From: a virus
Lineage: Duplodnaviria > Heunggongvirae > Uroviricota > Caudoviricetes
Direction: 5' to 3' (one strand)
IMG/VR virus record: IMGVR_UViG_2671181188_000017
DNA length: 53,578 nt
Shown: in pieces, positions 16,039 through 16,104 of the stretch
Layout: every line of letters starts with the position of its first letter
How positions within the stretch are numbered: the stretch's first letter is position 1
Program-made: the position numbers and the translations under genes
The notes under the pieces: model-generated
What the model was told of the DNA's origin: nothing
Database searches by the model: none
What the model saw: only the letters and a program-made list of their open reading frames with translations

Positions 16039-16104
16039 TGGCGGAGAGAGGGGGATTTGCCCCCCCGGTAGAGTTGCCCCTACTCCGGTTTTCGAGACCG
16101 GTCC
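16039..16104 (-). pseudogene. 3' fragment of a tRNA-Ser(CGA)-like gene (pseudo-tRNA, probable att remnant)
   Basis: Reverse complement reads as acceptor 3' end, T-arm (two mismatches) and the anticodon stem-loop ccggtctcgaaaaccgg (anticodon CGA); the 5' third of the tRNA is absent. Recalled by eye, not searched. Confidence 0.45.

What the first reader, a model, noticed from the sequence alone, without database searches (positions are those of the whole stretch)
16039..16104. Orphan 3' fragment of a tRNA-Ser(CGA)-like gene inside the prophage cargo region
About 66 nt whose reverse complement reads as acceptor 3' end, T-arm (two mismatches) and anticodon stem-loop with anticodon CGA, then diverges. 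An isolated tRNA 3' fragment is the typical scar of an integrative element that used that tRNA as its att site. It suggests the cargo block between the invertase and the att repeat (IS fragment, AraC gene, GIY-YIG gene) was imported from a different island. The match is from memory of the tRNA sequence.
Basis: partly seen in the sequence, partly recalled or inferred. Interest (0 to 1): 0.5.

Follow-up and report, generated by a model that had tools for sequence, protein, structure and literature searches.

The report
Fossil serU phage attachment scar
The tRNA-Ser fragment is real: it is the leftover right-hand attachment junction of a phage that once sat in the serU tRNA gene, still joined to 278 bases of serU's chromosomal neighbourhood, and it is now inert passenger DNA inside a prophage at a different tRNA gene (thrW) of E. 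coli O157:H7.

Summary
Observation confirmed. The reverse complement of window 16039-16104 is the 3' 66 nt of E. coli serU (tRNA-Ser, anticodon CGA). It has two mismatches, at the conserved T54 and T55 of the T-loop.

It matches serU's chromosomal downstream flank at 97-99% over 344 bp in nearly all E. coli.

The piece is therefore an attR-type junction (phage arm, core, bacterial flank) displaced from serU to the thrW locus. In strain MB15 a collinear sibling prophage sits at the real serU. Its right end reads pinE, an identical GIY-YIG protein, the same phage arm, the same 68-bp core, the same flank, then yodB.

In the window the flank stops abruptly inside the last 55 nt of an IS630 copy. 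An AraC gene (probably patE), an IS3 fragment and the thrW attachment arm follow.

The same flank/IS630 junction occurs in three deposited lambdoid phage genomes (ev099, mEp332, PhiR70_1) and in 30 viral contigs. There it is joined to two unrelated phage arms, both native to serU.

It is not a tRNA gene, and the copies are decaying.

Verdict: a well-explained relic and a new member of a known kind; modest interest.

The parts
16039..16104 (-). 3' 66 nt of serU tRNA-Ser(CGA), tRNA positions 25-90. Two substitutions at T54/T55 (TT to GG). Not a functional tRNA.
   Evidence: no call by ARAGORN or the Rfam tRNA model
16037..16104 (-). Attachment core O: the 68 bp that are duplicated at both ends (attL and attR) of the sibling prophage at the true serU locus in strain MB15.
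   Evidence: attL/attR comparison
15761..16038 (-). B' arm: 278 nt of the chromosomal sequence that lies immediately downstream of serU, towards yodB, in E. coli.
   Evidence: 344 bp with O, 96.5-98.8% to native serU loci
15705..15760 (-). Last about 55 nt of an IS630 element (end of the transposase ORF plus the terminal inverted repeat), joined internally to B'. This is an illegitimate-recombination junction at 15760/15761.
   Evidence: no longer IS630 remnant upstream of the AraC gene in any of 5426 genomes
14713..15456 (-). AraC-family regulator gene. Probably patE (Z0321, OI-8/CP-933H); identified by locus, not by sequence.
   Evidence: Pfam HTH_AraC/HTH_18; PGAP annotation; PMC10877973, PMC2907692
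14237..14671 (+). IS3-family transposase fragment (rve core, N-terminus missing). It is the left edge of the cassette shared with phages ev099, mEp332 and PhiR70_1.
13912..14236 (.). thrW' (13912-13958), a 47-nt exact repeat of the thrW 3' end, which is the attR core of the resident prophage, plus its phage arm (13959-14236).
   Evidence: phage phi458 matches 13912-14220 (H105)
16105..16280 (.). P arm ('P2'), the phage-side arm of the serU attR. It is the same sequence as at the true serU attR of MB15.
16281..17054 (+). LEM-3-like GIY-YIG gene, the native terminal gene of this phage family. The protein is identical (WP_000355484.1) in the serU-resident MB15 prophage.
50957..52210 (.). thrW-specific integrase (50957-52120, +) and intact thrW (52135-52210, -), forming the attL end of the resident prophage. 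The integrase is unrelated in specificity to the serU integrase.

Best explanation
Window 15761-16104 is a fossil attR (P-O-B') of a phage that was integrated in serU. It consists of the 68-bp attachment core, which is the 3' part of tRNA-Ser(CGA), flanked on one side by the phage's own right arm (P2 arm, GIY-YIG, pinE, tail genes) and on the other by 278 nt of serU's chromosomal downstream flank.

Proposed history:
1. A single illegitimate recombination event joined that flank to an internal point of an IS630 copy lying upstream of an AraC (patE-like) moron. This is the kind of event that makes lambda-bio-type transducing genomes, or an equivalent break-and-join between a serU-resident prophage and another phage (inferred).
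2. The resulting cassette is O, B', IS630 remnant, AraC gene, IS3 fragment. It now sits in the non-essential region between the tail-fibre genes and attP in phages that use other integrases: lambda Int in ev099, and the thrW integrase in this window (shown).
3. The cassette has been joined to at least two unrelated serU-type phage arms (shown). The route was recombination in or at O-B' (inferred).

In this window the fragment does nothing as a tRNA or as an att site. No serU-type integrase is encoded here, and the copies accumulate substitutions, an indel and IS insertions. Its value is historical. It shows that the O157:H7 thrW prophage is a serU-type phage that swapped its integration module.
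For: 1. 344 bp of contiguous identity to serU plus its downstream flank in nearly all E. coli.
2. In MB15 and RMDEC332 a chimeric test query (GIY-YIG, P2, O, B', native yodB flank) is matched end to end at 98.2-98.3%.
3. The MB15 prophage lies between full serU (attL, followed by a different P' arm, three ORFs and a 328-aa integrase) and this attR. It is collinear with window 15761-50416 at 86-99% identity.
4. The flank ends at 15761, inside IS630 and 55 nt from its end.
5. The same junction is present in deposited phage genomes ev099, mEp332 and PhiR70_1 at 99%. It is also in 30 IMG/VR contigs: 8 with arm P1, which is the right arm of the lambdoid serU prophages of APEC O1 and the LT-IIb phage, and 22 with arm P2.
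6. The block's flank haplotype is shared by P1 and P2 copies and differs from the native serU loci examined, which implies a single origin.
7. Decay: the T-loop is wild type in 17 contigs, G6T in 2, G7 (as in the window) in 9, and has a 1-nt deletion in 2. One copy has an insertion in the T arm and another has IS1 in B'.
8. The window's two integrases share at most 31% identity, over short stretches only, with the serU integrase. The ev099 integrase shares 25% identity with the serU integrase, and from memory reads as lambda Int.
Against: The order of events cannot be reconstructed. No parent form was found. None of the 5426 genomes carries a longer IS630 remnant upstream of the AraC gene. The junction was not found in the species-representative genomes. 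Whether the arm exchange went through homologous recombination or a serU integrase is unresolved, because the first ~200 bp of O-B' carry almost no informative variation. Absence of function is inferred from sequence decay and context, not measured. Transcription of the segment was not examined.
Confidence: 0.88

Rival explanations
1. The fragment is still a working recombination site. As an attR-like or secondary attB site it is used by serU-specific integrases of co-resident or incoming phages. Alternatively its 344-bp homology to the chromosome is used by RecA. Either route would let phages that carry the cassette swap arms with serU-resident prophages.
For: One flank/IS630 junction is attached to two unrelated phage arms. 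The arms diverge exactly at the edge of the core, and both are native serU attR arms. serU prophages are noted for replacements (PMC7067040). The core is intact apart from the T-loop.
Against: No serU-type integrase is encoded in the window. The exchange may have happened only once or twice in the past. SNP patterns cannot separate integrase-mediated from homologous exchange. The copies are decaying.
Confidence: 0.25
2. The serU piece reached the thrW locus through a chromosomal rearrangement between two sibling prophages resident at serU and thrW in one cell, rather than travelling inside a phage genome.
For: The two prophages are collinear over about 35 kb, which gives ample homology. Recombination between prophages is documented in O157 (PMC2669165).
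Against: A single exchange would bring the whole chromosome arm beyond serU, not 278 nt that end inside an IS630 remnant. The native thrW-side neighbours (thrW', the P4-like element, yagP) are all in place. The identical junction is present in deposited phage genomes that use lambda Int.
Confidence: 0.05
3. It is a phage-encoded tRNA pseudogene or a tRNA-like regulatory RNA unrelated to integration, or a chance resemblance.
For: Phages do carry tRNA genes. The Rfam E-value search gives weak tRNA-clan and plastid 3'UTR hits.
Against: The identity extends 278 nt into serU's non-tRNA flank. The boundary coincides with the attL/attR duplication of real serU prophages. The 5' 24 nt of the tRNA are absent and T54/T55 are mutated. 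No promoter-like or terminator-like signal lies next to it.
Confidence: 0.02

Closest known systems
attR pseudo-tRNA of serU-integrated prophages (for example the partial tRNA-Ser annotated in Escherichia phage SerU-LTIIb, KU052038; the APEC O1 serU lambdoid prophage; the MB15 prophage)
   Same: Same 62-68-bp serU 3' segment and the same downstream flank. In MB15 the phage arm and the neighbouring GIY-YIG and pinE genes are also the same.
   Different: Those junctions sit at serU and continue into yodB/zinT. Here the junction is at the thrW locus, the flank is cut after 278 nt and fused to an IS630 remnant, and no serU integrase accompanies it.
Lambda-bio / lambda-gal specialised transducing genomes (hybrid att site plus adjacent host DNA captured by aberrant excision; established knowledge, Campbell model)
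   Same: P-O-B' hybrid att, host DNA contiguous with it, loss of the cognate int region on that side, a novel illegitimate junction, and carriage in phage genomes.
   Different: Only 278 nt of host DNA and no host gene were captured. The junction partner is an IS630 copy next to a moron. A foreign attP-int module follows, so extra recombination steps are needed. The excision route itself is inferred, not shown.
ptwF (thrW pseudogene at the end of cryptic prophage CP4-6) and icdC (icd duplication at the end of e14) in E. coli K-12 (from memory)
   Same: Partial duplicates of the integration target left at a prophage end.
   Different: Those lie at their own target locus and still mark the boundary of the resident element. 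This one marks a former residence at another locus and is internal to the present prophage.

Membership tests
Functional tRNA-Ser gene | Complete cloverleaf (5' acceptor strand, D arm) recognised by tRNA finders | tested here: not met
   ARAGORN calls only thrW in the window. The Rfam tRNA model has no hit; the best clan hit is tRNA-Sec at 21.5 bits against a gathering score of 47. tRNA positions 1-24 are absent.
Functional tRNA-Ser gene | Conserved T54-Psi55-C56 T-loop | tested here: not met
   GGTTCAAATCC is replaced by GGGGCAAATCC. Other copies show G6T or a 1-nt deletion.
Prophage attR junction at a tRNA gene (P-O-B') | Core identical to the 3' part of the target tRNA and duplicated at both ends of an integrated prophage | tested here: met
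   A 68-bp duplication between attL (full serU) and attR of the MB15 prophage corresponds to window 16037-16104.
Prophage attR junction at a tRNA gene (P-O-B') | Phage arm on one side identical to that of a bona fide integrated phage | tested here: met
   Window 15761-17162 is 98.6% identical to the MB15 attR region, including GIY-YIG.
Prophage attR junction at a tRNA gene (P-O-B') | Bacterial flank of the target locus on the other side | tested here: met
   278 nt of serU downstream sequence.
Prophage attR junction at a tRNA gene (P-O-B') | Located at the target tRNA locus, delimiting the resident element, with the cognate integrase at the other end | tested here: not met
   It lies at the thrW locus (proA-thrW ... 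yagP). The resident prophage is delimited by thrW and thrW'. Its integrase is unrelated to the serU integrase. Hence 'fossil' attR.
Specialised-transducing-type (lambda-bio-like) phage genome | Hybrid att plus contiguous host DNA ending at an illegitimate junction with phage DNA | tested here: met
   B' ends at 15761 inside IS630, 55 nt from its end. The junction is identical in 30 viral contigs and 3 phage records.
Specialised-transducing-type (lambda-bio-like) phage genome | Generated by aberrant excision of a prophage | not testable with these tools
   Only the product is seen. No parent form was found.
Specialised-transducing-type (lambda-bio-like) phage genome | Carried in virion DNA | tested here: inconclusive
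   It is present in records deposited as complete phage genomes with named propagation hosts (ev099, mEp332, PhiR70_1). Packaging was not verified here.

The most novel reading that the evidence does not exclude
The captured core-plus-flank (O-B', 344 bp, identical to a site present in about 99.9% of E. coli chromosomes) acts as a portable recombination anchor. Any phage carrying the cassette can recombine, by RecA or by a resident serU integrase, with whatever prophage occupies serU. It would thereby acquire that prophage's entire late-gene arm while keeping its own integrase. This would explain why one flank/IS630 junction is now attached to two unrelated phage morphotypes (lambdoid siphovirus and SfV/e14-like myovirus) and why the patE acid-resistance regulator travels with it.
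Probability: 0.25. Interest if true: 0.5.

Novelty: new member of a known kind. Interest (0 to 1): 0.3.

Why it matters
The fragment gives a datable, single-origin marker for the history of the O157:H7 thrW prophage (the Sp1/CP-933H lineage). That prophage is a serU-type SfV/e14-like phage that exchanged its integration module. Its AraC gene, probably the acid-resistance and LEE regulator patE, belongs to a cassette that in every copy seen in 5426 genomes begins at the same flank/IS630 junction.

It is also a natural example of host DNA next to an att site being fixed in circulating phage genomes. For annotation, the segment should be labelled a serU pseudogene/attR relic, not a tRNA and not a boundary of the present element. 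It has no evident physiological role.

Tried and rejected
1. Looking for a genome in which intact serU is naturally followed by the AraC block. Back-translated AraC patterns and the exact 23-nt junction were scanned over 185,579 species-representative genomes and found nothing. Both scans of that collection are now used.
2. Looking for a parent with a longer or complete IS630 upstream of the AraC gene. A chimeric query against 5426 E. coli genomes gave no record with at least 80% coverage. Two extra IMG/VR hits (L043, L044) were unrelated IS630 copies.
3. Locating the arm-exchange crossover from SNP haplotypes. The informative SNPs all lie in the distal 125 nt of B', so the test cannot decide.
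4. Looking for a regulatory role. There are no terminator-like sites, and the only promoter-like site lies next to the AraC start.
5. Prior description. Full-text searches confirmed serU as a prophage site but found no mention of this relic. The PatE paper (PMC3416394) is not held, so patE identity rests on the locus (Z0321, OI-8, CP-933H).
6. Rejected: chance match, functional tRNA, active attP of the resident phage, and a simple exchange between two prophages. Reasons are given under the rival explanations.

Full report
**What is at the coordinates.**
- On the minus strand, window 16039-16104 reads GGACCGGTCTCGAAAACCGGAGTAGGGGCAACTCTACCGGGGGGGCAAATCCCCCTCTCTCCGCCA.
- Aligned to the K-12 serU locus, this is positions 25-90 of the 90-nt tRNA-Ser gene. 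ARAGORN gives that gene anticodon cga.
- There are two mismatches. Both fall in the T-loop: the conserved T54 and T55 are G.
- An 86-nt query finds annotated tRNA-Ser genes in 5423 of 5426 complete E. coli genomes, with E = 6e-27.
- ARAGORN and Rfam at gathering thresholds call no tRNA here. A permissive Rfam search gives only a sub-threshold tRNA-Sec hit (21.5 bits against 47) and an irrelevant plastid 3'UTR hit.

- The identity to the serU locus does not stop at the CCA end. It continues for 278 nt of serU's non-coding downstream flank, the side facing yodB, to window 15761.
- The 344 bp together are 96.5-98.8% identical to native serU loci.
- A partial tRNA followed by the tRNA's own chromosomal flank is the structure of a prophage attR (P-O-B'), not a bare scar.

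**Where the window is.**
- The window is the proA-thrW ... yagP region of an E. coli O157:H7. Positions 1-25000 are 100% identical to strain N8B7-2 and many others, apart from one small inversion described below.
- thrW lies at 52135-52210, next to an integrase gene at 50957-52120. A 47-nt exact repeat of the thrW 3' end lies at 13912-13958.
- Between these lies an SfV/e14-like prophage with lambdoid early genes, an HK97-type head, a Mu-type contractile tail, invertible tail fibres and pinE.
- After pinE come, in order: the GIY-YIG gene (16281-17054), the serU piece, an AraC gene (14713-15456), an IS3-family fragment (14237-14671), and the phage arm of the thrW att site (Pfam).
- Left of thrW' lies a P4-like satellite prophage. 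This accounts for the C4 and isrK RNA hits at 5802-6035.

**Test of the attR reading.**
- If the GIY-YIG side is the true phage arm of a serU phage, some genome should contain GIY-YIG, arm, core and flank continuing into the native serU neighbourhood.
- I built a chimeric query from window 15762-16500 (minus strand) followed by K-12 sequence beyond the 278-nt point.
- It is matched end to end at 98.2-98.3% in strains MB15 and RMDEC332. Five more genomes match partially.
- In MB15 the prophage begins at an intact serU, followed by a different arm, three ORFs and a 328-aa integrase.
- It ends with pinE, a GIY-YIG protein identical to the window's (WP_000355484.1), the same arm, the core, the flank, and then yodB-zinT.
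- The sequence duplicated at its two ends is 68 bp, equal to window 16037-16104.
- The MB15 prophage is collinear with window 15761-50416 at 86-99% identity. Homology stops at the integrase module on one side and at 15761 on the other.
- The window's thrW integrase and P4-like integrase are unrelated in any useful sense to the serU integrase: at most 31% identity over 58 residues.

**The other side of the junction.**
- At 15760/15761 the serU flank is fused to the last about 55 nt of an IS630 element. This remnant is the final ten codons of the transposase (PGGKHGLAKV*) plus the terminal repeat. The AraC upstream region follows.
- A junction inside an IS, rather than at its end, indicates illegitimate recombination, not transposition.
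- No complete E. coli genome carries a longer IS630 remnant in front of this AraC gene. The junction is therefore ancestral to all copies seen.
- The AraC gene is very probably patE (Z0321, OI-8, prophage CP-933H), an RpoS-dependent activator of acid resistance and repressor of LEE genes (PMC10877973; PMC2907692). I did not have the Z0321 sequence to confirm this.

**The cassette travels in phages.**
- Window 14235-16100 (IS3 fragment, AraC gene, IS630 remnant, flank, core) is 98.8-99.2% identical to a segment of three deposited phage genomes: ev099, mEp332 and PhiR70_1. In these it lies between the tail-fibre genes and the integrase.
- The ev099 integrase has only 25% identity to the serU integrase. 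From memory its sequence reads as lambda Int.
- Consistent with that, a related prophage carrying the AraC block sits at the gal-bio lambda site.
- In those phages the sequence on the phage side of the core is a different arm, P1. P1 is itself the right arm of lambdoid prophages truly integrated at serU, namely APEC O1 and the LT-IIb phage, where the partial tRNA-Ser is annotated.
- Among 30 IMG/VR contigs holding the exact flank/IS630 junction, 8 have arm P1 and 22 have arm P2.
- The flank haplotype is common to both groups and differs from the native serU loci of K-12, MB15, APEC O1 and the LT-IIb host. This points to one capture event followed by exchange of the phage arm.
- About 519 of 5426 genomes hold at least 80% of window 14200-16110.

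**State of the relic.**
- Among the 30 contigs, the T-loop is wild type (G5TT) in 17, G6T in 2, G7 (as in the window) in 9, and has a 1-nt deletion in 2.
- One copy has an insertion of about 1.35 kb in the T arm. In strain WCHEC020031 an IS1 sits in the flank.
- Typical O157 (strain 9000) keeps TT but differs in the arm.
- This is the pattern of unselected sequence.
- No promoter-like or terminator-like signal lies in or next to the fragment.

**Mechanism, with shown and inferred steps.**
- Shown: the segment is a serU attR with host flank. Its phage side is native to a serU-integrating sibling. The flank ends at an illegitimate junction in IS630. The cassette is present in phage genomes with other integrases and with two different serU-type arms. 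The copies are decaying.
- Inferred, step 1: the capture occurred by aberrant excision of a serU prophage, or by a break-and-join between a serU prophage and another phage. Because a foreign attP-int module follows the cassette, more than one step is required.
- Inferred, step 2: the arm exchange went through the 344-bp homology or through a serU integrase acting at the core. SNPs cannot decide between the two.
- Inferred, step 3: the fragment has no present function.

**Comparison with the known.**
- The fragment belongs with tRNA-derived att relics, such as the annotated pseudo tRNA-Ser of the LT-IIb serU prophage and, from memory, ptwF and icdC of K-12.
- In structure it resembles lambda-bio-type hybrid att sites.
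- It fails the tests for a tRNA gene and for a current element boundary.
- serU is a documented prophage site where replacements are frequent (PMC7067040, PMC8065619).
- I found no prior description of this particular relic in the thrW prophage. The principle is textbook, so I rate it a new member of a known kind, with interest about 0.3.

Noticed in passing
window 17157-17741 (pinE region; ORF 17184-18110 +): A 585-bp segment carrying codons 1 to about 172 of pinE is inverted relative to the otherwise identical strain N8B7-2 and to MB15. The endpoints are a full pix-like crossover site (TTCTCCCAAACCAACGTTTAAGAA, at the start of the alternative tail-fibre ORF) and a quasi-site inside the 3' end of pin (TATACC-AA-CATCAT). 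Exchange occurred at the central AA/TT dinucleotide. The result is a 308-aa in-frame fusion of Pin to a tail-fibre C-terminal domain, and Pin loses the last helix of its HTH. None of the 5426 complete E. coli genomes has this orientation across both junctions. It looks like self-inactivating inversion at a secondary site, as described from memory for the cixQ sites in cin of P1.
   Followed up: partly
window ~1100-13900: A P4-like satellite prophage (Sp2-like). It has an integrase (12569-13750), psu, delta and sid homologues, an Icd-like gene with the C4 antisense RNA and isrK (5802-6035), and an alpha primase-helicase (2665-4998). Genes annotated as an ABC-three-component system plus an AAA ATPase (10476-12176) sit in the cargo position next to the integrase. 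I found no third thrW repeat at its far end; there is only a weak 22-nt repeat (1103-1124 and 13781-13802).
   Followed up: no
window 25000-52135 compared with L003 (N8B7-2): thrW lies about 2.15 kb further from position 25000 in the window than in N8B7-2. In N8B7-2 an IS1203 interrupts the portal/terminase region of the prophage. The window matches the MB15 terminase region at 34358-36203, which N8B7-2's annotation lacks, so its prophage may be more complete. I did not map the difference.
   Followed up: no
window 15457-16280: The 824-bp divergent intergenic region between the AraC (patE-like) gene and the GIY-YIG gene is a patchwork of five unrelated pieces: native AraC upstream sequence, the IS630 end, the serU flank, the serU core and the phage P arm. 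The regulatory regions of both genes are therefore bounded by the relic. The only promoter-like match is at 15519-15490 (minus strand), in front of the AraC gene.
   Followed up: partly
L001 (E. coli WCHEC020031, NZ_CP033401) 15663-22431: A non-O157 human isolate has the same GG allele of the serU relic at thrW (100% over 86 nt). There the prophage is reduced to early genes plus a tail-fibre remnant, IS1 is inserted in the serU flank, and there is no P4-like element. The relic and the AraC cassette therefore persist through extensive prophage decay.
   Followed up: partly
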